From the NCBI GenBank assembly GCA_052327205.1, contig CM126202.1, positions 454,212,001 through 454,276,000 on the forward strand: DNA of 64,000 bases, written 5' to 3'. The notes under the pieces are model-generated. The model was not told the origin of the DNA. It saw nothing but the letters and a program-made list of their open reading frames with translations, and did no database searches. The stretch comes from Somniosus microcephalus. Its lineage: Eukaryota. A program made the position numbers and the translations under genes. Positions 10,117 through 28,515 of this stretch are shown here, piece by piece (within the stretch, counting starts at the first letter, position 1; every line of letters starts with the position of its first letter).

Positions 10117-10358
10117 ACGTCTCACTGCAATTACATAGGGTCCTGGTGAGACCACACCTGGAGTATTGTGTACAGTTTTGGTCTCCTTACCTAAGGAAGG
10201 ATATACTTGCCATAGAGGGAGTGCAACGAAGGTTCACCAGACTGGTTCCTGAGATGGGGGGATTAACATAGAAACATAGAAGATAGGAGCAGGAGTAGGC
10301 CATTCGGCCCCTCGAGCCTGCTCCGCCATTCGATGAGATCATGGCTGATCATCCAAAC

Positions 10359-13219
10359 TCAGTACCCTGTACCTGCCTTCTCCCCATATCCCTTGATACC
10401 TTTAGCTCTAAGAAATATATCTAACTCCTTCTTGAATATATTTAAAGACTTGGCCTCAACCGCCTTCTGTGGTAGAGAATTCCAGAGGTTCACCACTCTC
10501 TGGGTGAAGAAATTCTTCCTCATCTCTGTCCTAAATGTCTTACCCCTTATCCTTAGACTATGACCCCTGGCTCTGGACACACCGACCATCGGGAACATTC
10601 TACCTGCATCTAGTTTGTCCAGACCTGTCAGAATTTTATAAGTTTCGATGAGATCCCCTCTCATTCTTCTAAACTCCAGCGAGTATAAGCCCAATCGACC
10701 CAATCTCTCCTCATACGTCATTCCTGCCATCCCAGGGATCAGCCTTGTGAACCTTCGCTGAACTCCTTCCATGGCAAGAACATTCTTCCTCAGATAAGGT
10801 GCCCAAAACTGCACACAGTACTCAAGGTGTGGTCTCACCAAGGCCCTGTACAACTGCAACAGGACATCCTTGCTCCTGTACTTAAACCCTTTTGCTATGA
10901 AGGCCAACATACCATTTGCCTTCTTCACCGCCTGCTGCACCTGCATGCTTACCTTCAGTGACTGGTGCACAAGGACACCCAGGTCTCGTTGCACTTCCCC
11001 TTCTCCCAATCTATTGCCATTCAGATAATAGTCTGCCTTTCTGTTTTTGACACCAAAGTGGATAACCTCGCATTTATCCACGTTATATTGCATCTGCCAC
11101 GCTTCTGCCCAATCACCCAAACTGTCCAAATCATCCTGGAGTTTCTCGGTATCCTCCTCGCAGCACACACGCCCACCCAGCTTTGTGTCGTCTGCAAACT
11201 TGGAGATATTACATCTAGTTCCCTTATCTAGATCATTAATGTATATTGTGAATAGCTGGGGTCCAAGGACCGATCCCTGCGGTACCCCACTAGTCACTGC
11301 CTGCCACTTGGAAAGAGACCCGTTAATTCCTACTCTCTGCTTTCTGTCCGCCAACCAGTTCTCTATCCAAGTCAATACCTTGCCCCCAATCCCATGTGCC
11401 TTAACTTTACACGCTAATCTCTTATGCGGGACCTTATCGAAAGCCTTTTGAAAGTCCAAATACACCACATCTACTGGTTCTCCCTTATCTATTTTCCCAG
11501 TTACATCCTCAAAAAATTCCAGTAGATTAGTCAAGCACGATTTACCTTTTGTAAATCCATGTTGACTTTGTCCGATCCTGTCACTGTTTTCCAAGTGCTC
11601 AGCTATTACATTCTTTATAATGGACTCTAGCATTTTCCCCACTACCGATGTCAGGCTTACCGGTCTGTAATTCCCCGCTTTCTCTCTACCACCCTTTTTG
11701 AATCGTGGGGTAACATTAGCTACCCTCCAATCCATGGGTACAGTTCCAGATTCCAGCGAATTTTGGAAGATGATCAGCAATGCATCTACTATTTCTAGGG
11801 CCACTTCCTTAAGTACCCTAGGATGTAGATTATCAGGCCCTGGGGATTTATCGGCCTTCAATCCCATCAATTTCCCTAACACCATTTCCCTACAAATACT
11901 GATTTCTTTCAGTTCCTCCCTCTCATCAGACCCTATGCTCTCCAACATCTCTGGGAGGTTATTTGTGTCCTCCTTTGTGAAGACAGAACCAAAATATGCA
12001 TTTAATTGGTCTGCCATTTCTTTGTTCCCCATTATAACATCCCCTGCTTCTGACTGCAAGGGACCTACACTTGATTTCACTAATCTTTTTCTCTTCACAT
12101 ATCTATAAAAGCTCTTACAGTCAGTTTTTATGTTCCCTGCAAGCTTACTTTCATATTCTATTTTCCCCTTCTTAATTAATCCCTTTGTCCTCCTTTGTTG
12201 AATCCTAAACTGCTCCCAATCCTCAGGGTTACTGCTTTTTCTGGCCAATTTATATGCCCTCTTCTTGGATCTTATGCTATCCCTAATTTCCCTTGTTAGC
12301 CATGGTTGAGTCACCCTTTTTGTTTTATTCTTATCCCAAACTGGGATTAACAACTTCTGTAGTTCATCCATGCAGTCTTTGAATGTTTGCCATTGCCTAT
12401 CCACCGTCAACCCTTTGAGTGACATTCCCCAATCAATCCAACCAATTCGCGCCTCATACCATCGTTGTTTCCTTTATTTAATTTCAGGAACCTAGTCTCT
12501 GAGTCAACTATTTCATTCTCCATCCTAATGAAGAATTCTATCATATTATGATCGCTCTGACCCAAGGGGCCTCGTACAACAGGATTGCTAATTAATCCTC
12601 TCTCATTACATAATACCCAGTCTAAGATGGCCTGATCTCTGGTTGGTTCCTCGACATATTGTTCCAGAAAACCATCCCGTAAACATTCTAGGAATTCCTC
12701 CTCCACAGTATTTTTACTAATTTGGTTAGCCCAATCTATATGTAAATTAAAGTCACCCATGATGACTCCTGTGCCCTTATTGCACGCATCTCTAATTTCC
12801 CGTTTAATGCCATCCCCAACCTCCGTATTACTGTTTGGAGGTCTATATACCACTCCCACTAACGTTTTCTGCCCCTTGATATTTCTCAGTTCTACCCATA
12901 CAGATTCCGCATCATCAGAGTTAATATCCTTCCTTTCCATTGTGTTAATCCCCTCTTTAACCGGCAATGCTACCCCACCTCCCTTTCTTTTTTGCCTATC
13001 CTTCCTAAATATTGAATACCCCTGGATGTTGAGTTCCCAGCCTTGGCCATCCTGGAGCCATGTTTCTGTAATCCCAATCAAATCATATTCGTTTACCTCT
13101 ATTTGCGCAGCTAATTCAGCCACCTTGTTCCGAATGCTCCTTGCATTAAGACACAAAGCCTTCAGGCTTGTTTTTTTAACGCTCTCAGACCTACATGAAT
13201 TATTATTTACTGTGACCAT
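10359..13219 (-). pseudogene. CR1 ORF2, APE endonuclease + reverse transcriptase, one frameshift near 12440
   Basis: EN motifs LNARSI, ITETWL, GVVYRPP, MGDFN, SDHN (13219-12407). RT motifs [36 protein letters not shown] (12425-10359). The frame is open upstream to 13351. Confidence 0.93.
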
Positions 13220-13341
13220 GTTTGATTTAAACCGTTGAGTTCTTTGCCTTCTAATTTTGTTTTTCTCCTTCCTTTCTTTTGCTTTTTTCCTTGTTTCCCT
13301 TTCCTCTGTCTCCCTACTCAGGTTCCCAACCTCCTGCCACT

Positions 13342-14292
13342 TTAGTTTAAACCCTCCCCAACAGCACTAGCAAACACTCCCCCTAGGACATCGGTCCCGG
13401 CCCTGCCCAGGTGCAAACCTTCCTGTTTGTACTGGTCCCACCTCTCCCAGAACCGGTTCCAATGTCCAAGGAATTTGAATCCCTCCCCCTTGCACCATTT
13501 CTCTAGCCACGTATTCATTTGAAATATCCTCCTATTTCTACTCTGACTAGCACGTGACACTGGTAGCAATCCTGAGATTACTACCTTTGAGGTCCTATTT
13601 TTTAATTTACCTCCTAACTCCCTATATTCTGCTTTTAGGACCTCATCCCGTTTTGTACCTATATCGTTGGTGCCTATGTGCACCACGACAACTGGCTGTT
13701 CGCCCTCCCCCTCCAAAATGTTCTGCAGCCGCTCTGAGACATCCTTGACCCTTGCACCAGGGAGGCAACACACCATCCTGGAGTCTCGATTGCGGCCGCA
13801 AAAACGCCTATCTATTCCCCTTACAATTGAGTCCCCTATCACTAGAGCTTTCCCACTCTTTTTCCTCCCAGCCTGTGCAGCAGAGCCACCCATGGTGCCA
13901 GGAAGTTGGCTGCTGCTGCCTTCCCCTGATGAGTCATCCCCCCCAACAGTATTTAAAGTGGTATATCTGTTGGAGAGGGGGATGGCCGCAGGGGATTCCT
14001 GCACTACCTGCCTGCACCTCTTACTCTGCCTGCTGGTCACCCATTCCCTTCCTGCCTGTACACACTTTACCTGCGGTGTGACCAACTCACTATATGTGAT
14101 ATTCACGACGTCCTCAGCATCGCGAATGCTCCAAAATGAATCCATCCGCAGCTCCAGTGCCGCAATGCGGTCTGTCAGTAGCTGCAGCTGGACACACTTC
14201 CCGCACACATGGTCGTCAGGGATGCAGGAAGCGTCCCTGATTTCCCACATAGAGCAGGAGGAGCACACTACGGGGCTGGGCTGTCCTGCCAT
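13342..14292 (-). CDS. CR1 ORF1p: N-terminal Cys zinc-finger/coiled coil plus SGNH/GDSL esterase domain (316 aa)
   Basis: CSSC..CGKC followed by a heptad segment; GDSIVR (block I), PGA, HIGTND (block III), GLHL (block V). Known architecture of esterase-type CR1 ORF1. Confidence 0.9.
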   Translation of the reverse strand: MAGQPSPVVCSSCSMWEIRDASCIPDDHVCGKCVQLQLLTDRIAALELRMDSFWSIRDAEDVVNITYSELVTPQVKCVQAGREWVTSRQSKRCRQVVQESPAAIPLSNRYTTLNTVGGDDSSGEGSSSQLPGTMGGSAAQAGRKKSGKALVIGDSIVRGIDRRFCGRNRDSRMVCCLPGARVKDVSERLQNILEGEGEQPVVVVHIGTNDIGTKRDEVLKAEYRELGGKLKNRTSKVVISGLLPVSRASQSRNRRIFQMNTWLEKWCKGEGFKFLGHWNRFWERWDQYKQEGLHLGRAGTDVLGGVFASAVGEGLN

Positions 14293-15304
14293 GACTTACC
14301 CTTTAACTAATTAATTAAAATTAAATGAATCCCACCAATTTCTCTGCAGTTAAATTATATATTTAAGGGCCCTGGTTTACAAACTGTCCCCGCTACACCA
14401 CAGAGACTTTAAAAGCTATAAACCACAGACTTAAAGTTTTAAAACGAGAGAAATACTCCAATCAATCACCTACCTGTTTTGTGGTGACGTCACACCTCGA
14501 ATACTTTTTACCTCCCTCCTTCCCTGAGATTGGAGATTGGTGAGGCCCACCTGAGCCTCTGGGGCCTTTTGTAGTCGCTCTGCCGCTCCGAGATTCCTCC
14601 CACCGCTGCCGATTGTCCTATGAGGAGAGATTGAGTAGACTAGGCTTATATTCTCTCGAGTTTAAAAGAATGAGAGGTGATCTCATTGAAACATACAAAA
14701 TTCTTACAGGGCTTGACAGGGTAAATGCAGGGAGGATGTTTCCCTGGTTGGGGAGTCTAGAACCAGGGGTCACTGTCTCAGAATAAGGGGTCGGCCATTT
14801 AGGACTGAGATGAGGAGGAATTTCTTCACTCAGAGGGTGGTGAATCTTTGGAATTCTCTACCCCAGAGGGCTGTGGAGGCTCAGTCATTGAGTATATTCA
14901 AGACAGAGATCGATAGATTTTTGAATATTAAGGGAATCAAGGGATATGGGGATAGTGCAGGAAAGTGGAGATGAGGTAGAAGATCAGCCATAATCCTATT
15001 CAATGGCGGAGCAGGCTCGAGGGGCCGAATGGCCTACTCCTGCTCCTATTTCATATGTTCTTATGTTCTTATGTACACCCCCGTGTTGAACAAAGAGCCC
15101 CTTTTATCAGCTTCTGCATTTAATCCGTATTCCAGGAGCCCAAGGTCAGTGAACCAACTCCTGCTCTTTATCCTGCAGAGTCCAGTTTCCTTCGACCAAA
15201 AGCAGAGAACTGGATCTCCAAGTACAGCTGAGTCCAGAGCAATTGAATTCAACCGTACCGACACCAGGGAGGGGGGTCACAGACACAGGGAGGGGGTCAC
15301 AGAA

Positions 15305-16268
15305 ATGGACGAGGGAATTGGATGTAATATCTCCAAATTTGCAGATGACACAAAGCTGGGTGGGAGGTTATGCTGTGAGGAGGATGTCGTGAAACTCCAG
15401 TATGATTTGGATAGGTTGGGTGATTGGGCAGAAACATGGCAAATGCACTATAATGTGGATAAATGTGAGGTTATCCACTTTGGTGGCAAAACAGGAAGGC
15501 AGATTATTATTTGAATGGCAATAGATTGGGAGAAGGGGAAGTGCAAAGAGACCTGGGTGTTCTTGTGCACCAGTCGCTGAAGGTAAGCATGCAGGTGCAG
15601 CAGGCGGTTAAGAAGGCAAATGGTATGTTGGCCTTCGTAGCAAGAGGGTTCGAGTACAAGAACAAGGATGTCTTGCTGCAGTTGTACAGGGCCTTGGTGA
15701 GACCACACCTTGAGTATTGTGTGCAGTTTTGGTCACCTTACCTGAGGAAGGATGTTCTTGCCATGGAAGGAGTGCAGCGAAGATTCACCAGGCTGATACT
15801 TGGGATGGCAGGAATGACGTACGAGGAGAGATTCTGTCGATTGGGCTTATACTCACTGGAGTTTAGAAGATTGAGAGGGGATCTCATCGAAACCTATAAA
15901 ATTCTGTCAGGCCTGGACAGACTAGATGCAGGAAGGATGTTTCTGATGGCCGGGGAGTGCAGAACCAGGGGTCATAGTCTAAGGATAAGGGGTAAGCCAT
16001 TTAGGACTGAAATGAGGAGGAATTTCTTCACCCAGAGAGTGGTGAACCTGTGGAATTCTCTGCCACAGAGGGCGGTGGAGGCCAGTTCATTAAATATATT
16101 CAAGAAAGAGTTGGATATATTTCTTAAGGCTAAAGGGATCAAGGGATATGGGGAGAAGGCAGGGACAGGGTACTGAATTTGGATGATCAGCCATGATCTC
16201 ATCGAATGGTGGAGCAGGCTCGAGGGGCCGAATGGCCTACTCCTGCTCCTATCTTCTATGTTTCTATG
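15305..16268 (+). mobile_element. Young CR1 3' fragment inserted in the minisatellite
   Basis: [17 protein letters not shown] ... GIKGYGEKAGTGY, tail TCTTCTATGTTTCTATGT; minisatellite units on both sides. Confidence 0.92.
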
Positions 16269-18279
16269 TGAGGGGGGGTCACAGACATGGGGAGGGGGTC
16301 ACAGACATGGGGAGGAGGGTCACAGACATGGGGATGAGGGTCACAGACACGGGGAGGAGGGTCACAGACTCAGGGAGGGGGGTCACAGACACGGGGAGGG
16401 GGTCACAGACACGGGGAGGGGTCACAGACACGGGGAGGGGGTCACAGACACGGGGAGGGGTCACAGACACAGGGGGGTCACAGACACGGGGAGGGGGTCA
16501 CTGACACGGGGAGGGGGGGTCACAGACACGGGGAGGGGTCACAGACACGGGGAGGGGGTCACAGACACAGGGAGGGGGTCACAGACACGGGGAGGGGTCA
16601 CAGACACGGGGAGGGGGTCACAGACACGGGGAGGGGTCACAGACACAGGGAGGGGGTCACAGACACGGGGAGGAGGTCACAGACAGGGGGAGGGGGGTCA
16701 CAGACACGGGGCGGGGGGTCACAGACACGGCGAGGGGTCACAGACATGGGGAGGGCGGTCACAGACAGGGGGAGGGCGGTCACAGACACGGGGAGGAGGT
16801 CACAGACATGGGGAGGGGGCTCACAGACACGGGGAGGAGGTCACAGACAGGGGGAGGGCGGTCACAGACACGGGGAGGAGGTCACAGACAGGGGGAGGGC
16901 GGTCACAGACACGGGGACGGCGGTCACAGACACGGGAAGGAGGTCACAGACAGGGGGAGGGCGGTCTCAGCCAAGGAAGGGGGGTCACAGACACAGGGAG
17001 GGGTCACAGACACGGGGAGGGGTCACAGACAGGGGGAGGGCGGTCACAGACACGGGGAGGAGGTCACAGACAGGGGGAGGGCGGTCACAGACACGGGGAG
17101 GAGGTCACAGACAGGGGGAGGGCGGTCACAGACACAGGGAGGGCGGTCACAGACACGGGGAGGGGTCACAGACACGGGGAGGGGTCACAGACAGGGGGAG
17201 GGCGGTCACAGACACGGGGATGGCAGTCACAGACAGGGGGAGGGCGGTCACAGACACGGGGAGGAGGTCACAGACAGGGGGAGGGGGGTCACAGACAGGG
17301 GGAGGGGGGTCACAGACACGGGGAGGGGGGTCACAGACATGGGGAGGAGGTCACAGACAGGGGGAGGGCGGTCACAGACACGGGGAGGGCGGTCACAAAC
17401 ACGGGGAGGAGGTCACAGACACGGGGAGGGGGGTCACAGACACGGGGAGGGCTCACAGACACGGGGAGGGGGGTCACAGACACGGGGAGGGGGGTCACAG
17501 ACACGGGGAGGGCGGTCACAGACACGGGGAGGAGGTCACAGACACGGGGAGGGTGGTCACAGACACGGGGAGGGGTCACAGACACGGGGAGGGGGGTCAC
17601 AGACACGGGGAGGAGGTCACAGACACGGGGAGGGCGGTCACAGACACGGGGAGGGGTCACAGACACGGGGAGGGCGGTCACAGACACGGGGAGGAGGTCA
17701 TAGGCACGGGGAGGGCGGTCACAGATACGGGGAGGGGTCACAGACACGGAGAGGGTGGTCACAGACACGGGGAGGGGGTCACAGACACGGGGAGGGGAGT
17801 CACAGACAGGGGGAGGGCGGTCACAGACACGGGGAGGGGGTCACAGACATGGGGAGGGGGATCACAGGCACGGGAAGGAGAGTCACAGACAGGGGGAGGG
17901 CGGTCACAGACACGGGGAGGAGGTCACAGACACGGGGAGGGCGGTCACAGACACGGGGAGGAGGTCACAGACACGGGGAGGATGGTCACAGACACGGGGA
18001 GGAGGTCACAGACACGGGGAGGAGGTCACAGACAGGGGGAGGAGGTCACAGACAGGGGGAGGGCGGTCACAGACACGGGGAGGAGGTCACAGACACGGGG
18101 AGGGCGGCCACAGACACGGGGAGGAGGTCTCAGACACGGGGAGGGGGTCACAGACACAGGGAGGGGGATCACAGACACGGGAGGAGGGTCACAGACACGG
18201 GGAGGGGGGTCACAGACACAGGGAGGGGGGTCACAGACATGGGAAGGGGGGTCACACTCAGGGGGTGGAGGTCACAGAC

Positions 18280-19065
18280 AAGAATACCCTCAGTCAACTA
18301 GTCCTGGGACTCAGTGAAGTAACTACTAACAATACTAACAATAACCAGCCCCAGGACAGTGACAGGGGTAACACAAAGAATTCGACCCAACACAATCGTC
18401 GCTAAGCAAAAGGAAAAATATCTGACATATTGGGCAGAAACAACAAAAACCCAAAGCAAACTCAATTGCTACTTGGCCCTAAACAGACAATACAACATAG
18501 CTGATTACCTGACCATGGTAAAGGATAACAAACTGAGAAGAACCTTGACAAGGTACAGACTTAGCGAACATAGCCTAGCGATCGAAAAAGGCAGACACAG
18601 GCAGACCAGGCTGCCAAGAGAGGACAGGATATGCTCTCACTGCAGTCAGGGAGTGGTGGAGACAGAGATGCACTTCCTCACAGCTTGTGGAAAATATCAG
18701 GGCATCAGGGAGAATTTCTACCAAAAATTCTCACAAATATGCCCTGATTTCAGAAATCTGAATGACAACCAAAAACTCCCATTCCTACTGGGAGAGGAGA
18801 GAAGCTGTATAACACTGGCGGCACACTATGTTACAGCTTGCCATGAACAGAGGGACAACCAGTAAACTAAGAAAAGAATATATATAAACAATGCGAATGT
18901 ATATTTATACACTCAGGGATATACCTGTTTATACACTGTATGAATAGAACTGCGTTTATGTGCTAAACCATAAATGTATTTTGATGCTTTGGCAACATAA
19001 GATGTAACTTATCATGCCAATAAAGCGATTTGAATTGTGAATTGTGAATTGTGAATTGTGAATTG
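18280..19065 (+). mobile_element. Non-LTR retrotransposon 3' fragment, RTEX-like, with (GAATTGT)n tail
   Basis: ORF end with RLSEHSLAIEKGRH and CCHC knuckle CSHC-x8-H-x4-C, then AATAAA and a tandem tail. Clade assigned from memory of fish RTE-X elements. Confidence 0.7.
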
Positions 19066-19904: not shown

Positions 19905-22900
19905 GCACCAACCCCAACCCCCACCCAACCTCCCTCACTCCCAAGCCCCAACATCCCCAATCACCCCCATCCCCCCACACTCCCCAACCCCCCACCCACC
20001 AACCCCCACACTCCCCATCTCCCCCACACTCCCCAATCCCCCATCTCCCCCACACTCCCCAATCCCCCCATCTCCCCCACACTCCTCAATCCCCCCATCT
20101 CCCCCATACTCCCCAATCCCCCCATCTCCCCCACACTCCCCAATCCCCCCAAACCCCACACTCCCCAACCCCCCACCCACCAACCCCCACACTCCCCAAT
20201 CCCCCCATCTCCCCCACACTCCCCAATCCCCCCAAACCCCACACTCCCCAACCCCCCACCCACCAACTCCCACATTCCCCATCTCCCCATCCCCCCACAC
20301 TCCCCAATCCCTTACCCCGAACCCCCACACTCCCCAATCCCCCCATCTCCCCAATCACCCCCATCCCCCCACACTCCCCAACCCCCCACCCACCAACCCC
20401 CACACTCCCCCACACTCCCCAATCCCCCATCTCCCCCACACTCCCCAATCCCCCCATGTCCCCCACACTCCCCAATCCCCCCATCTCCCCCACACTCCCC
20501 AATCCCCCCATCTCCCCACACTCCCCAATCCCCCCATCTCCCCGACACTCCCCAATCCCCCCATCTCCCCCACACTCCCCAATCCCCCCATCTCCCCCAC
20601 ACTCCCCAATCCCCCCATCTCCCCCACACTCCCCAATCCCCCCATCTCCCCACACTCCCCAATCCCCCCATCTCCCCCACACTCCCCAATCCCCCCATCT
20701 CCCCCACACTCCCCAATCCCCCCATCTCCCCCACACTCCCCAATCCCCCACCCCCAACCCCCACACTCCCCAACCCCCCACCCACCAACCCCCACACTCC
20801 CCAATCCCCCATCTCCCCCACACTCCCCAATACCCCCATCTCCCCCACACTCCCCATTCCCCCCATCTCCCCCACACTCCCCAATCCCCCCATCTCCCCC
20901 ACACTCCCCAATCCCCCCATCTCCCCCACACTCCCCAATCCCCCCATCTCCCCCACACTCCCCAATCCCCCACCCCCAACCCCCACACTCCCCAATCCCC
21001 CCATCTCCCCCACACTCCCCAATCCCCCCATCTCCCCCACACTCCCCAATCCCACCATCTCCCCCACACTCCCCAATCCCCCATCTCCCCCACACTCCCC
21101 AATCCCCCACAAACCCCACACTCCCCAACCCCCCACCCACCAACCCCCACACTCCCCAACCCTCCACCCACCAACCCCCACACTCCCCAATCCCCCATCT
21201 CCCCCACACTCCCCAACCCCCCATCTCCTCCACACTCCCCATCCCCCCATCTCCCCCACACACCCCATCCCCACATCTCCCCCACACTCCCAAATCCCCC
21301 CATCTCCCTCACACTGCCCATCCCCCTATCTCCCCCACATACCCCATCCCACCATCTCCCCCACACTCCCCAATCCCCCATCCCCACACACTCCACACAG
21401 TCCCCAATCCCCCCATCCCACCACACTCCCCAAACCCCCACCCCCCAACACCCACACTCTCCCATCTCCCCGATCTCCCCCACACTCCCCAATCCCCCCA
21501 TCCTCCCCCAGCTCCCCAACACCCCCCATCTCCCCCACACTCCCCAATGCCCCCATCCCCCCAAACTCCCCAATCCCCCACACTCCCTAATCCCCCCATC
21601 ACCCCCACACTCCCTAATCCCCCATCACCCCCACACTCCCCAATCCCCCATCCACCCCACACTCCCCAATCCCCCCATCCACCCCACACTCCCAATCCCC
21701 CCATCTCCCCCAAATTCCCCAATCCCCCCATCTCCCCCACACTCCCCAATCCCCCATCTCCCCCACACTCCCCAATCCCCCCATCTCCCCCACACTCCCC
21801 AATCCCCCCATCTCCCCACACACCCCAATCCCCCATCTCCCCCACACTCCCCAATCCCCCCATCTACCCCACACTCCCCAATCCCCCCATTCCCCCACAC
21901 TCCCCAATCCCCCATCTCCCCCACACTCCCCAATCCCCCCATCTCCCCCACACTCCCCAATCCCCCCATCTCCCCCACACTCCCCAATCCCCCCATCTCC
22001 CCCACACTGCCCAATCCCCCATCTCCCCCACACTCACCAATCCCCCCATCTCCCCCACACTCCCTAATCCACCCATCTCCCCCACACTCCCCAATCCCCA
22101 CAACTTCCCCACACTCCCCAATCCCCCCATCTCCCCCACACTCCCCAATCCCCCCATCTCCCCCACACTCCCCAATCCCCCCAACCCCCAAACCCCACAC
22201 TCCCCAACCCCCCACCCACCAACACCCACACACCCCAACCCCCCACCCACCAACCCCCACACTCCCTATCCCCCATCTCGCCCACACTCCCCATCCCACC
22301 ATCTCCCCCACACTCCCCAATCCCCCCATCTCCCCCACACTTACCATCCCCCCATCTTCCCCACACTCCCCATCCTCCCATCTCCCCCACACTCCCCAAT
22401 CCCCCATCTACCCCACACTCCCCATCCCCCCCATCTCCCCCACACTCCCCAATCCCCCCAATCCCCCCCACACTCCCCAATCCGACCCATCCCACCCACA
22501 CTCCCCAATCCCCCCATCCCCGCACCCCCATCTCCCCGCAACACTCCCCAATCCCCCCCATCCCCCCCACACTCCCCAATCCCCACACCCCCCCACACTC
22601 CCCAATCCCCCATCCCCCCCCCACACTCCCCAATCCCCCCACCCCCCCCACACTCCCCAATCCCCCCATCTCCCCCACAATCCCCCCCACCCCCCCCACA
22701 CTCACCAATCCCCACATCTCCCCCACACTCCCCAATCCCCCCATCTCCCCCACACTCCCCAATCCCCCCATCCCCCCCCAGACTCCCCCCAATCCTCCCA
22801 TCCCCCCCACACTCCCCAATCCCCCCGTCCCCCCCAGGCTCCCCAATCCCCCCATCCCCCCCCACACTCCACCCCAATCCCCCCCATCCCCCCCAGACTC

Positions 22901-25900
22901 CCCAATCCCCCCATCTCCCCCACACTCCCCAATCTCCCATCCCCCCACATTCCCCAATCTCCCCATCCCCCCACACTCCCCAATTGCCCCACCCCCCCCA
23001 CACTCCCCAATCCCCCCACCCCCCCACATGCCCCAATCCCCCCCATCCACCCCACACTGCCCAATCCCCCCATCTCCCCCCCACAATCCCCAATCCCCCC
23101 CATCTCCCCCCAAACTCCCTAATCCCCCCACCTCCCCCACAGTCCCCATCTCCCCACCCCCCACACTCCCCAATCCCCCCATCTGCCCCACACACCCCAA
23201 TCCCCCCATCTCCCCCACACTCACCAATCCCCCCATCTCCCCCACACTCCCCAATACCCCCATCACCCCCACACTCCCCAATCTCCCCATCTCCCCCACA
23301 CCCCCACCCCCCAACCCCCCATCTCCCCCACACTCCCCAATCCCCCCCATTCCCCCACCACACTCCCCAATCCCCCATCTCCCCCACACTCCCCAATCCC
23401 CCCATCCCCCCCACACTCCCCAATCCCCCAAACCCCACACACCCCAAACCCCCACCCACCACCCCCACACTCCCCAACCCCCCACCCAACAACCCCCACA
23501 CTCCCCCAACCCCCAAACCACCCTATCCCCCATCACCCCCACACTCCCCATCCCACCATCTCCCCCACACTCCCCAATCCCCCCATCTCCCCCCACACTT
23601 ACCATCCCCCCCATCTTCCCCACACTCCCCATCCTCCCATCTCCCCCACACTCCCCAATCCCCCATCTCCCCCACACTCCCCATCCCCCCATCTCCCCCA
23701 CACTCCCCAATCCCCCCCCACACTCCCCAATCCGACCCATCCCACCCACACTCTCCAATCCCCCCCATCCCCCCAATCCCCCCACCCCCCCACACTCCCC
23801 AATCCCCCCACCCCCCCACACTCCCCAATCCCCCACCCCCATCCCTCCCCACCACACTCCCCAATCCCCCATCCCCCCACACTCCCCAATCCCCCATCCC
23901 CCCACACTCCCCAATCCTCCATCTCCCCCACACTCCCCAATCCCCAATCCCCCATCTCCCCCTACACTCCCCAATCCTCCATCTCCCCCACACTCCCCAA
24001 TCCCCAATCCCCCATCTCCCCTACACCCCCCAATCACCCACACCCAACCCCCACACTCCCCAATCCCCCCATCCCCCCACACTCCCCAATCCCCCCATCC
24101 CCCCACACTCTCCAATCCCCCCATCCCCTCACACTCCCCAATCTCCCCCACACTGCCCAAACCCCCACACTCCCCAATCACCCCACACTCTCCAATCCCC
24201 CCCACACTCCCCAATCTCCCCCACACTCCCCAATCCCCCACCCCAACCCCCAGATGCCCCAATCCCCCCATCTCCCCCACACTCCCCAATCCCCCCATCT
24301 CCCCCACACTCCCCAATCCCCCCATCTCCCCCACACTCCCCAATCCCCCCATCCCCCCACACTCCCCAATCCCCCCATACCCACACTCCCTAATCCCCCC
24401 ATCTCCCCATCTCCCCCACACTCCCCAATCCCTGCATCCCCCCCACACTCCCCAATCCCCCCATCCCCCCCCACACTCCCCAATCCCCCCATCCCCCCCC
24501 CACACTCCCCAATCCCCCCATCCCCCCCACACTCCCCAATCCCCCCATACCCCCAGACTCCCCAATCCCCCCATACCCCCAGACTCCCCAATCCCCCCAT
24601 ACCCCCAGACTCCCCAATCCCCCCATCACCCCCACACTCCCCAATCCCCCCATCACCCCCACACTCCCCAATCCCCCCATCCCCCAACACTCCCCCACAC
24701 TCCCCAATCCCCCCATCCCCCCACACTCCCCAATCCCCCCATCTCCCCCACACTCCCCCATCCCCCCCACACTCCCCCATCTCCCCCATCACTCCCACAC
24801 TCCCCAATCCCCCCATCCTCCCCCAGACTCCCCAATCCCCACATCTCCCCCACACTCCCCAATCCCCCCATACCCACACTCCCTAATCCCCCCATCTCCC
24901 CCACACTCCCCAATCCCCCCATACTCCCCAATCCCCCCATCCCCCCAGGCTCCCCAATCCCCCCATACTCCCCAATCCCCCCATCCCCCCCAGGCTCCCC
25001 AATCCCCCCCATACCCCCCCAGACTCCCCAATCCCCCCATCACCCCCACACTCCCCAATCCCCCCATCTCCCCCACACTCCCCAATCCCCCCAATCCCCC
25101 CCACACTCCCCAATCCCCCCCATTCCCCCCCACACTCCCCAATCCCCCCACCCCCCCACACTCCCCAATCCCCCCCCATCCCCCCCCCACACTCCCCAAT
25201 CCCCCCCATCCCCCCCCACACTCCCCAATTCCTGGACTAGGGACAGGGTCACTGGCAAGGCTTGGAAGCAAAGCAGAGCCAGGCCTGGTTAGTACCTGAA
25301 CGGGTGACCATCAGGGAAGACCAGGTGCAGAAGGTCACAGAAGGAGCCCCGAGGAGGGGCGGTTGGTGAGAAGGTCACGGAAGGAGGAGCGGCTGGTGAG
25401 CAGGCCCGGGCGTTGGGCTGAAGATTGTCGGACAGGAGGAATGGTGGAAATGGAATGGCGGCGCGCACCGACGCAGCGGCTTTGCTTCTCCCAGTCATGG
25501 AAGCTTGCAAGATCATATTTCGTTGTTCATGTACTTGTGCAATGACAATAAAGTTGAATTATTATTAATTATTATCCCCCCCCCACACTCCCCAATGCCC
25601 CCATCTCCCCCACACTCCCCAATCTCCCCATCTCCCCCACACTCCCCAATCCCCCCATCTCCCCCACACTCCCCAATCCCCCCATCTCCCCCACACTCCC
25701 TCCATCTCCCCCACACTCCCCAATCTCCCATCTCCCCCACACCCCCAATCTCCCCATCTCCCCCACACTCCCCAATCTCCCCATCTCCCCAATCTCCCCA
25801 TCTCCCCCACACTCCCCAATCTCCCCCACACTCCCCAATCTCCCCATCTCCCCCACACTCCCCAATCTCCCCATCTCCCCCACACTCCCCAATCCCCCCA

Positions 25901-27180
25901 CACTCCCCAATCCCCCCACACTCCCCAATCCCCCTATCTCCTCCACACTCCCCAATCCCCCCATCTCCCCCACACTCCCCAATCACCATCTCCCCCACAC
26001 TCCCCAATCCCCACACTCCCTCATCCCCCCACTCCCATCTCCCCCCCACACTCCCCAATCCCCCCATCCCCCCCCACACTCCCCAATCCCCCCATCCCCC
26101 CACACACTCCCCAATCCCCCATCTCCCCCACACTCCCCAATCCCCCCATCTCCCCCACACTCCCCAATCCCCCCATCTCCCCCACACTCCTCAATCTCCC
26201 CATCCCCCCACACTCCCCAATCCCCCCATCTCCCCCACACTCCCCAATCCCCCCATCTCCCCCACACTCCCCAATCCCCCCATCTCCCCCACACTCCCCA
26301 ATCCCCCCATCTCCCCCACACTCCCCAATCCCCCATCTCCCCCACACTCCCCAATCCCCCCACACTCCCCAATCCCCCCATCTCCCCCACACTCCCCAAT
26401 CCCCCATCTCCCCCACACTCCCCAATCCCCCCACACTCCCCAATCCCCCCATCTCCCCCACACTCCCCAATCCCCCCATCCCCCCACACTCCCCAATCCC
26501 CCCATCTCCCCCACACTCCCCAATCCCCCCATCTCCCCCACACTCCCCAATCCCCCCATCTCCCCCACACTCCCCAATCCCCCCATCTCCCCCACACTCC
26601 CCAATCCCCCCATCTCCCCCACACTCCCCAATCCCCCCATCTCCCCCACACTCCCCAATCCCCCCATCTCCCCCACACTCCCCAATCACCATCTCCCCCA
26701 CACTCCCCAATCCCCACACTCCCTCATCCCCCCACTCCCATCTCCCCCCCACACTCCCCAATCCCCCCATCCCCCCCCACACTCCCCAATCCCCCCCATC
26801 CCCCCCCACACTCCCCAATCCCCCCCATCCCCCCCACACTCCCCAATCCCCCCATCCCCCCACACACTCCCCAATCCCCCATCTCCCCCACACTCCCCAA
26901 TCCCCCATCTCCCCCACACTCCCCAATCCCCCCATCTCCCCCACACTCCCCAATCCCCCATCTCCCCCACACTCCCCAATCCCCCCATCCCCCCACACTC
27001 CCCAATCCCCCCATCTCCCCCACACTCCCCAATCCCCCCATCTCCCCCACACTCCCCAATCCCCCCATCTCCCCCACACTCCCCAATCCCCCCATCTCCC
27101 CCACACTCCCCAATCCCCCCATCTCCCCCACACTCCCCCAATCTCCCCCACACTCCCCAATCACCCCAGCTCCCCCCCAC
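19905..27180. repeat. ~7-kb C-rich satellite, ~26-27-bp unit CCCCAATCCCCCCATCTCCCCCACACT, interrupted at 25230-25575
   Basis: Directly visible; the + strand is almost G-free; internal block duplications. Confidence 0.97.
25230..25575 (+). mobile_element. Short retroposon: 5S rRNA-derived head, GC-rich body, Rex1/Babar-type 3' tail (SINE3-like)
   Basis: 25261-25334 aligns without gaps to vertebrate 5S rRNA nt 44-117 (58/74 by hand count). Tail ..GTACTTGTGCAATGACAATAAAGTTGA(ATT)n resembles the LINE tail at 35418-35500. Confidence 0.8.
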
Positions 27181-27326
27181 TGCTGAGATCAATAGGCTTT
27201 TGCAAGACAAGTTTATAAATGGATAAGGAGCCAAGGCAGGTGGATGGAGTTAGGATACAGATCAGCTGTGATCTCATTGAATGGAGGAACAGGCTCGAGG
27301 GGCTGAATGGCCTCCTTCTGCTCCTA
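27181..27326 (+). mobile_element. CR1 3' tail fragment
   Basis: GATCAGCTGTGATCTCATTGAATGG..GGCTCGAGGGGCTGAATGGCCT. Confidence 0.7.
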
Positions 27327-27850
27327 CGTTCCACCCTCCGAACATCTGGTAAGTGCGCCTTTAAGAAAGGTCAGAGTTCGAGAAACTTAATTAAACCTGA
27401 GTCGTATTCAGATTGGCAAAAAAAAACCGAGGCAGCACTGCGCCTGATTCAGCAGGCAATTTGCTATTGTGATAAATGTGAGATTTGGCTGCTTATTATC
27501 AGCCTCCATTCTCACACAGGCGCTTGTACAGTGAAGGAGTGTGTGGCACAGGGAGAGAGAGAAAGAAAAAAAATCGGAAATTTACATTTGGACTTCGAGT
27601 AACATGGCAAAGGGTATTTGCAAATAACAGCGCGAGACTCAGCACTTTCATTGTCTGCGAGACTCTGTTTCCCTCTGATATGAAAATTCAATTATTTTAC
27701 AGCCAGACCCTACCATTCAACCATCATCTCGCTGACAACCAGTCTAAGTGTGGAGCCTGGTGCCTCTGTGGGCAGCTTGCTGACTAGATAGCGCTCTGCC
27801 GCATTCTCAAATGTGACATTATTTTTTTTTTGCAAGACTCGTGAGCACAG

Positions 27851-27878
<28 letters not shown>
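27851..27878. repeat. (AC)n microsatellite
   Basis: Direct observation. Confidence 0.9.
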
Positions 27879-27881
<3 letters not shown>

Positions 27882-28515
27882 ATTGCCGGAAGATTTTTGC
27901 ATTCACGGAGCGAAAATTAATCAACTCAACCCTGCATTATCCAGTGTCTGTAATTTTGTCTTTTAATCTACATATTGAATTTTTTTTCTTTTAAAAGTTT
28001 AATTTCCTGCAGAGGCTGATAGTAATCGTATATTTAAAATGTTAAATGCTGCCAGTGTGTATTATTCAGACGCAGCGCATGCACATGAATATATAATGTG
28101 CTTTCGTAGGATACAGTGGGTTAACAATAGTTGTTTTTTTGCCTCATTAAAAAGGAGGTCTGAACTCCTTAAAGAGATAGGATCTGTTTCTCAGTAACCA
28201 ACAAAAGCTGGGTCTCTTGCCTCGCGCTAGTTCCCCCTCTCTTGCCAGCTTTCACCTCTCTCCCACCTTTAACCGGCCTCAATCCGTGTGTCCATTAACC
28301 ATGTCCATGAGCCCTGACAACGAATGCCAGCAGGTTGAATGCAACTGTTTGCATATTGTGCTGTTGTCACTGTGAGGAGTCGAGCCCAGCTGAGGATGGG
28401 GTGCGTGGGGTGGCACTGGCCACAGGTGACATCAGGTTAACCCTTCGGATGCACTTCCGAAGTGCTCACATGACAGAAATATAACTCGATCTACGAAAAG
28501 AGTAAAGCAGCGATT

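What the first reader, a model, noticed from the sequence alone, without database searches (positions are those of the whole stretch)
13300..13356. Candidate -1 programmed ribosomal frameshift (U_UUA_AAC) joining CR1 ORF1 to ORF2
Seen on the minus strand: ORF1 ends GGT TTA AAC TAA, so the heptamer T_TTA_AAC (13351-13345) is in the exact X_XXY_YYZ phase and is followed immediately by the stop. The -1 frame (TTT AAA CTA AAG TGG CAG..) is stop-free for 44 codons (FKLKWQEVGNLSRETEERETRKK..) and runs in frame into the endonuclease ATG at 13219. Eight nt downstream is a weak hairpin, CAGGAGGTTGGGAACCTG, in a purine-rich tract. Known: UUUAAAC is the canonical slippery site of coronaviruses and some retroviruses, whereas the LINE ORF2s studied (L1, SART1) use reinitiation or translational coupling. 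Inference: this CR1 may make a Gag-Pol-like ORF1-ORF2 fusion carrying the esterase domain. I cannot confirm whether this is already reported.
Basis: partly seen in the sequence, partly recalled or inferred. Interest (0 to 1): 0.75.

Follow-up and report, generated by a model that had tools for sequence, protein, structure and literature searches.

The report
Ribosomal slip site in CR1 LINEs
A very common jumping gene of sharks, amphibians, reptiles and birds ends its first gene with the seven-letter 'slippery' word that viruses use, with its second gene lying one base back, so its copying enzyme is likely made by ribosomes slipping into one fused protein rather than by starting afresh.

Summary
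Observation confirmed: U_UUA_AAC (13351-13345, minus) ends ORF1 of a near full-length esterase-type CR1 LINE, in phase, directly before UAA; the -1 frame is open for 60 codons into the endonuclease. It is conserved, not chance. TTA and AAC stand in 12 of 12 junctions with DNA, although other shared codons match only 32% of the time. ORF2 is in the -1 frame in 8 of 9 junctions; 3 of those 8 have no AUG before the endonuclease. 104 of 168 homologous ORF1 proteins end in Leu-Asn; distant ones end in Gln-Gly-Asn or Ser-Lys-Asn, fitting G_GGA_AAC and A_AAA_AAC (inferred, no DNA). AUG 13219 is not kept in close relatives. Best reading (0.83): -1 frameshifting makes an ORF1-ORF2 fusion; untested at the bench. 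This copy's ORF2 is broken. Ten paper searches found no report for CR1, but the original CR1 papers and Repbase were not searchable. The scan noted the same idea earlier on another genome (e1-8041403).

The parts
10265..14610 (-). Near full-length esterase-type CR1 LINE, 4346 bp, inserted into an older opposite-strand CR1 fragment
   Evidence: flanks join into one CR1 3' fragment
14611..14614 (-). 5' target-site duplication AATC
10261..10264 (-). 3' target-site duplication AATC
14293..14610 (-). 5' UTR, 318 nt
13342..14292 (-). ORF1, 316 aa: Cys-rich N-terminus, SGNH/GDSL esterase, ends ...GEGLN*
   Evidence: profile matches the ORF1 esterase 4c1b at E 4.5e-40
13348..13354 (-). Second in-phase canonical heptamer G_GGT_TTA overlapping the main one
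   Evidence: same letters by eye in stingray, sawfish and catshark consensuses; absent in bird-type loci
13345..13351 (-). Slippery heptamer U_UUA_AAC in X_XXY_YYZ phase
   Evidence: conserved in 12 of 12 junctions, one as G_UUA_AAC
13342..13344 (-). ORF1 stop codon directly 3' of the heptamer
   Evidence: a stop stands here in 10 of 12 junctions (TAG 7, TGA 2, TAA 1)
13325..13334 (-). G-rich tract starting 11 nt after the heptamer (GGAGGTTGGG here); candidate 3' stimulator
   Evidence: G at +11 and +12 in 10 of 10, at +14 and +15 in 9 of 10; 97-99% of laid depth in four runs reads G at 13332 where this copy has A
13166..13345 (-). Open -1-frame linker, 60 codons, Lys/Arg/Glu-rich; length and sequence vary between lineages (27-87 codons)
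13217..13219 (-). In-frame ATG in good context (AAC ATG G), not conserved across relatives
12539..13165 (-). APE-type endonuclease domain of ORF2
   Evidence: PF03372 and PF14529
12440..12470 (-). Region where ORF2 of this copy changes frame (broken copy)
11040..11690 (-). Reverse transcriptase domain
   Evidence: PF00078, E 2e-34
10265..10361 (-). ORF2 stop and 3' UTR ending in TTCTATGT repeats

Best explanation
The U_UUA_AAC word at the end of CR1 ORF1 is a conserved sequence signal that likely makes a fraction of ribosomes slip back one base, so that ORF2 would be made as an ORF1-linker-endonuclease-RT fusion of about 1,310 residues. Shown: the word, its phase, the adjacent stop, the open -1 frame, the lack of a conserved AUG and a G-run at +11 are shared from sharks to birds. 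Inferred: most ribosomes stop at the adjacent codon and release ORF1p; a minority, paused by the stop codon and by the G-run (likely through a bound protein or a weak G-quadruplex, not a hairpin or pseudoknot), slip on Leu and Asn tRNAs and continue ...GEGL(N/K)LKWQ...; this would fix a Gag/Gag-Pol-like ratio and carry ORF2p into the ORF1p particle.
For: (1) Codon-level invariance: TTA and AAC in 12 of 12 junctions; TTA is 19 of 168 Leu codons and AAC 28 of 60 Asn codons elsewhere in these ORF1 ends; among six divergent loci shared amino acids use the same codon in 132 of 412 pairs, Leu 15 of 75. The preceding base is T in 11 of 12 and G in L002; G_UU(A) is the tolerated form of equine arteritis virus (PMC5009743). 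(2) ORF2 in -1 frame in 8 of 9 junctions that include the endonuclease; linker stop-free in 7 of those 8 over 27-87 codons. (3) No in-frame ATG before the endonuclease in L001, L017, L018; only at its first residue in L005; in L001 the first Met lies 14 codons inside, past the NARS motif. The window's Met is replaced in P0239 and P0240 (62-67% identical). (4) 104 of 168 proteins that reach the profile end finish in LN; the residue before LN can end in U in 103 of 104 (background 18% unable, P 4e-8; 55 of 56 among 50% clusters, P 2e-4); LN sits -4 to +13 residues from the domain end, so it follows the stop, not the fold. (5) Ten end in GN (nine after Gln, one after Ser) and two in SKN; LSGN and LSKN are sisters (support 0.993) and one FLN lies among QGN ends. 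These fit G_GGA_AAC and A_AAA_AAC, which with U_UUA_AAC are named among the most shifty heptamers for mammalian ribosomes (PMC5009743). (6) By eye, 17 of 23 TTTAAACTA and 2 of 7 TTTAAACTG hits in the consensus table of PMC13343379 lie at ORF1 ends of shark, ray, chimaera, bony fish, coelacanth, frog, lizard and crocodilian families; none of 23 displayed hits (of 34) for synonymous variants did.
Against: No experiment, ribosome profile or peptide. No conserved hairpin or pseudoknot (z -0.89 to 1.46 in 10 loci; no nearby C-run in 6 of 10); a two-tier G-quadruplex is predicted in only 4 of 10. This copy has a good-context AUG 18 codons before the endonuclease, with no variant row among the 40 of 97 shown; 4 of 8 -1 junctions have some upstream in-frame AUG. 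Some shark families have a UAAUG stop-start overlap (ScyCan_CR1-1a, SquAca_CR1-17a and -6c; P0239 starts MWQG). Counter-examples: L020 (+1, stop lost, looks decayed), L014 (divergent, no heptamer, endonuclease in +1), P0241 (annotated ORF enters the endonuclease from another linker frame). The GN/KN heptamers are inferred from protein only. Profile A1 was built from sequences I chose, 30 of 31 ending in LN, which may favour LN ends. Six of the 11 loci share one data-set prefix, and all are related by descent.
Confidence: 0.83

Rival explanations
1. ORF2 is made by termination-reinitiation or scanning after the ORF1 stop (as proposed for SART1 and L1), with an AUG or non-AUG start; the conserved word helps termination or ribosome retention.
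For: SART1 uses an overlapping stop-restart and L1 an unconventional reinitiation (PMC5972666; PMC5009743). UAAUG overlap in some shark families; good-context AUG at 13219; the stop is always adjacent.
Against: No in-frame AUG within 45 nt of the stop in 11 of 12 junctions downstream (only L004); TURBS-like UGGGA within 40-90 nt upstream in only 4 of 12. In two of four runs most laid depth (87%, 75%) reads A at 13340, which puts an AUG right after the stop in the +1 frame, not the ORF2 frame (my frame count). Reinitiation does not explain invariant TTA-AAC, an open -1 frame from the heptamer on, or the GN/KN ends.
Confidence: 0.09
2. Leu-Asn at the C-terminus is needed by the ORF1 protein; the DNA word is inherited baggage and ORF2 is expressed in some other way.
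For: L315 and N316 cap the last esterase helix in most vertebrate families.
Against: Synonymous codons are not tolerated; the base before TTA is fixed; LN shifts by up to 17 residues relative to the domain; the related L2-type esterase clade (support 0.993) lacks the LN end, and the match to the solved chain 4c1b stops at profile position 310, before it.
Confidence: 0.04
3. The motif is a DNA or RNA-processing element (TATA-like internal promoter or splice signal) that yields an ORF2-only mRNA.
For: TTTAAA followed by a G-box resembles promoter words; some families read TAG|GT.
Against: An ORF2-only mRNA needs an AUG, missing in 3 of 8; the AG|GT letters are absent in TAA and TGA families; strict codon phase and -1 frame would not be required.
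Confidence: 0.04

Closest known systems
Canonical -1 programmed ribosomal frameshifting of nidoviruses and retroviruses (IBV U_UUA_AAC, equine arteritis virus G_UUA_AAC)
   Same: Same heptamer and phase; polymerase ORF in the -1 frame; structural/abundant protein upstream (PMC5009743 passages).
   Different: No pseudoknot or stem-loop 5-8 nt downstream (spacing from PMC3919603); host is a non-LTR retrotransposon.
Protein-stimulated frameshifting at PRRSV nsp2 (nsp1beta plus poly(C)-binding protein)
   Same: Short unstructured homopolymer-rich motif 11 nt 3' of the shift site (CCCANCUCC, PMC5009743; here a G-run at +11).
   Different: G-rich, not C-rich; no binding protein identified; resemblance of spacing only.
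Dictyostelium TRE5-A and TRE3-A (APE-type non-LTR elements)
   Same: A review's figure legend states both require a -1 frameshift for ORF2 (PMC5911963).
   Different: Different lineage and ORF1; I saw only that sentence, no slip site or assay.
Vertebrate canonical CR1 with esterase (type IV) ORF1
   Same: Esterase ORF1, APE and RT in ORF2, short 3' repeat, no poly(A) (PMC13343379 section 15; PMC4120745 passages).
   Different: Those texts describe two separate ORFs; 'frameshift' occurs 0 times in PMC13343379, PMC3905857 and PMC4120745.
L1 and SART1 ORF2 translation
   Same: Bicistronic LINE RNA, low ORF2 output expected.
   Different: Reinitiation or coupling, separate ORF2p; here no conserved start and an open -1 frame from a slippery word.

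Membership tests
Esterase-type vertebrate CR1 LINE | ORF1 with SGNH esterase | tested here: met
   PF13472 E 1.2e-12; 4c1b E 4.5e-40; homologs in sharks, rays, coelacanth, Xenopus
Esterase-type vertebrate CR1 LINE | ORF2 with APE endonuclease and RT | tested here: met
   broken by a frame change in this copy
Esterase-type vertebrate CR1 LINE | Short tandem 3' repeat, no poly(A), short TSD | tested here: met
   TTCTATGT repeats and AATC duplication
Esterase-type vertebrate CR1 LINE | RT phylogeny within canonical CR1 | not tested
   no RT tree built; assignment rests on ORF1 neighbours and on matching junctions in consensuses labelled CR1
-1 programmed ribosomal frameshift | X_XXY_YYZ heptamer in 0-frame phase | tested here: met
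-1 programmed ribosomal frameshift | Heptamer conserved at nucleotide level beyond protein need | tested here: met
   12 of 12 versus 32% background
-1 programmed ribosomal frameshift | Downstream ORF open in -1 frame from the slip site | tested here: met
   8 of 9 in -1, 7 of 8 stop-free
-1 programmed ribosomal frameshift | 3' stimulator (any kind) | tested here: inconclusive
   conserved G-run at +11 of unknown action
-1 programmed ribosomal frameshift | Transframe product shown | not testable with these tools
   needs reporter, ribosome profiling or mass spectrometry
Pseudoknot/hairpin-stimulated -1 frameshift (coronavirus, retrovirus type) | Stable RNA structure 5-8 nt downstream | tested here: not met
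Protein-stimulated frameshift (PRRSV type) | Protein bound to a motif about 11 nt downstream | not testable with these tools
   spacing matches; binding untested
Termination-reinitiation (SART1, calicivirus type) | Conserved AUG overlapping or near the stop | tested here: not met
   in-frame AUG shortly downstream in 1 of 12 junctions; UAAUG in some shark consensuses only

The most novel reading that the evidence does not exclude
Esterase-type CR1 LINEs across jawed vertebrates, and likely beyond, make ORF2p only as an ORF1-ORF2 fusion through a protein-triggered -1 frameshift: a host G-run-binding protein or ORF1p itself binds the G tract at +11, and lineages have swapped among the three most slippery heptamers while keeping the mechanism. 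This would be a regulated, trans-activated frameshift in a LINE.
Probability: 0.25. Interest if true: 0.9.

Novelty: new variant of a known kind. Interest (0 to 1): 0.76.

Why it matters
How LINEs translate ORF2 is an open question studied mainly in L1 and SART1, where reinitiation is the model. CR1-group elements fill 22-34% of shark and ray genomes (PMC13343379) and dominate birds and reptiles. A conserved -1 frameshift would mean their RT is tethered to an esterase ORF1p as in Gag-Pol, that ORF2 annotations starting at the first AUG are wrong, and that 'intact copy' calls should require the junction. The signal is about 30 nt long, so it is directly testable in a reporter, and the unstructured G-run would be a new kind of frameshift stimulator.

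Tried and rejected
Own genome not held; only one ORF1-bearing copy in the window. Long-range pairing of the G tract with a C-rich stretch in ORF1 rejected: best partners fall at unrelated places in 10 loci. TURBS and splice readings not supported. DNA for GN/KN-ending relatives not obtained: viral contigs gave nothing, genome contigs four weak hits in bacterial assemblies, plasmids and phages no match; the one motif hit in viral contigs (L042) looks non-coding. Of 37 metagenome loci, 11 reach the ORF1 end with the heptamer; 13 are cut before the end or lack a C-terminal match; 13 are divergent or GDSL-like matches without the heptamer, of which only L014 has an endonuclease hit. No RNA holder listed. 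Laid contigs show no variant row at 13341-13359, but only 40 of 97 rows were shown, so this is weak. Longer-protein search gave 3 hits; P0236 and P0040 join ORF1 to the endonuclease through the FKL frame, but may be mutated copies or gene-model artefacts and are not counted as evidence of fusion. GN/KN clusters carry no usable organism names. No structure or complex was predicted.

Full report
What is there. The finding lies in a 4346-bp LINE on the minus strand (10265-14610) with an AATC duplication, inserted into an older CR1 fragment. ORF1 is 316 aa with an SGNH esterase; ORF2 has an APE endonuclease and RT but changes frame near 12450 in this copy. The nearest named ORF1 proteins are from a sawshark (74-76%), then rays and other sharks, so the window is likely from an elasmobranch (inference). 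It is the only copy in the window with ORF1, and no genome is held.

Observation. One of 159 long frames in the window ends in a canonical in-phase heptamer, this one; the background is 5 of 1305 codon positions in the element. A second canonical word, G_GGT_TTA, overlaps it. The hairpin is no better than shuffles.

Conservation in DNA. A metagenome scan with an ORF1 alignment gave 37 loci; 11 reach the ORF1 end with the heptamer, 13 stop short and 13 are divergent matches without it. In the 11 and the window, Leu-Asn is always TTA AAC, preceded by T (11) or G (1), while other shared residues use the same codon in 132 of 412 pairs among six divergent loci; the four with intact frames are 25-46% identical in protein, and two of the six have broken frames. 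A stop follows directly in 10 of 12, as TAG, TGA or TAA. Of nine junctions that include the endonuclease, eight have it in the -1 frame, seven with a stop-free linker of 27-87 codons; L020 is +1 and has lost its stop. At one in three per locus, 8 or more of 9 has a chance near 0.001 (my arithmetic; the loci are related, and six of the 11 share a data-set prefix). L014, a divergent locus without heptamer, has the endonuclease in +1. In the consensus table of PMC13343379, read by eye, 17 of 23 TTTAAACTA and 2 of 7 TTTAAACTG hits are ORF1 ends of shark, ray, chimaera, bony fish, coelacanth, frog, lizard and crocodilian families; of 34 hits for six synonymous variants 23 were displayed and none was at an ORF1 end. 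These consensuses contain many deletions, so phase was not scored on them, and I do not know how many CR1 rows lack the motif.

Conservation in proteins. 51 of 89 first-search homologs end in LN. With the profile search added, 168 of 229 proteins reach the profile end: 104 end LN, 10 GN, 2 KN. The residue before LN is one of 13 amino acids and can end in U in 103 of 104; before GN it is Gln (9) or Ser (1), which can end in G. The end shifts by -4 to +13 residues against the domain. On a FastTree tree of 117 esterase domains, vertebrate-type clades end in LN, an L2-like clade does not, and LN, GN and KN ends mix in a further group that also holds 19 other ends. U_UUA_AAC, G_GGA_AAC and A_AAA_AAC are listed among the most shifty heptamers (PMC5009743). 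The GN/KN reading is inference without DNA, and my profile was seeded with LN-ending sequences.

Start codon. Three of eight -1 junctions have no AUG before the endonuclease and one only at its first residue. The window's AUG is in good context and shows no variant among the 40 of 97 rows displayed for four runs, but it is replaced in two close relatives. Some shark families have UAAUG, so reinitiation could contribute there; in two runs most depth instead has an AUG right after the stop in the wrong frame.

Stimulator. No conserved fold lies downstream, and no consistent long-range partner. What is conserved is a G-run: G at +11 and +12 in 10 of 10, at +14 and +15 in 9 of 10, including third codon positions of Lys, Gln, Ser and Gly; this copy has an A at +13 where 97-99% of laid depth has G. 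The spacing equals that of the protein-bound PRRSV motif. G-quadruplexes can stimulate -1 shifting on U3A3C with a best spacer of 6-8 nt (PMC3919603), but only 4 of 10 loci give a two-tier prediction. Gly-rich linker coding may explain part of the tract.

Mechanism and odds. -1 frameshifting to an ORF1-ORF2 fusion 0.83; reinitiation 0.09; protein-level constraint 0.04; promoter or splice element 0.04. Sequence features are shown; slippage, its rate, the stimulator's action and the fate of the fusion are inferred.

Literature. Ten searches were run; none listed a paper on CR1 frameshifting. Seen: passages of PMC13343379 plus section 15 and supplement hits; passages of PMC3905857, PMC4120745, PMC5911963, PMC5009743 (first 300,000 of 449,034 characters; 'CR1' 0 times), PMC1965478, PMC11835228 (first half), PMC5972666, PMC2734521, PMC3919603. 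PMC5911963 states a -1 frameshift for Dictyostelium TRE5-A and TRE3-A, so frameshifting in a LINE is not without precedent. The original chicken and turtle CR1 descriptions of the 1990s (recalled, not seen) and Repbase/Dfam notes could not be searched and may remark on it.

Verdict. Real, conserved, and best read as a -1 frameshift signal with an unusual downstream element: a new variant of a known mechanism, interest 0.76.

Noticed in passing
window 14473 and 14299, minus: Two splice-donor-like words in the 5' UTR (CAG|GTAGGT and G|GTAAGT just before the ORF1 ATG); similar words appear by eye in shark CR1 consensus 5' UTRs. Several named host proteins contain ORF1 pieces.
   Followed up: no
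window 13354-13345, minus: Tandem overlapping slippery words G_GGT_TTA and T_TTA_AAC in shark and ray families ending GLN.
   Followed up: partly
window about 13420, minus: This copy reads EGLHL where relatives read DGLHL in the esterase Asp-x-x-His motif.
   Followed up: no
window 16177-18317 and about 20001-28000: Long tandem arrays with extreme strand skew (GC skew +0.40 and down to -0.99) that give long spurious ORFs.
   Followed up: no
window 5809-63693: At least a dozen 5'-truncated CR1 3' fragments at 63-95% identity to this element, several nested.
   Followed up: no
P0007: A CR1 ORF1 60% identical to this one is deposited under Pseudomonas aeruginosa on a 4159-bp contig, likely host contamination.
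   Followed up: no
L014 930-1145: Divergent esterase LINE without a slippery word; endonuclease in the +1 frame.
   Followed up: partly
P0170, P0174, P0195, P0209, P0214: A clade with internal (S/T/R)KN followed by a variable tail, possibly A_AAA_AAC with a later stop.
   Followed up: no
PMC13343379 supplement, SquAca_CR1-18 and -3: TTTAAACTA followed by a G-rich word also occurs in the 5' UTR of two dogfish CR1 consensuses.
   Followed up: no
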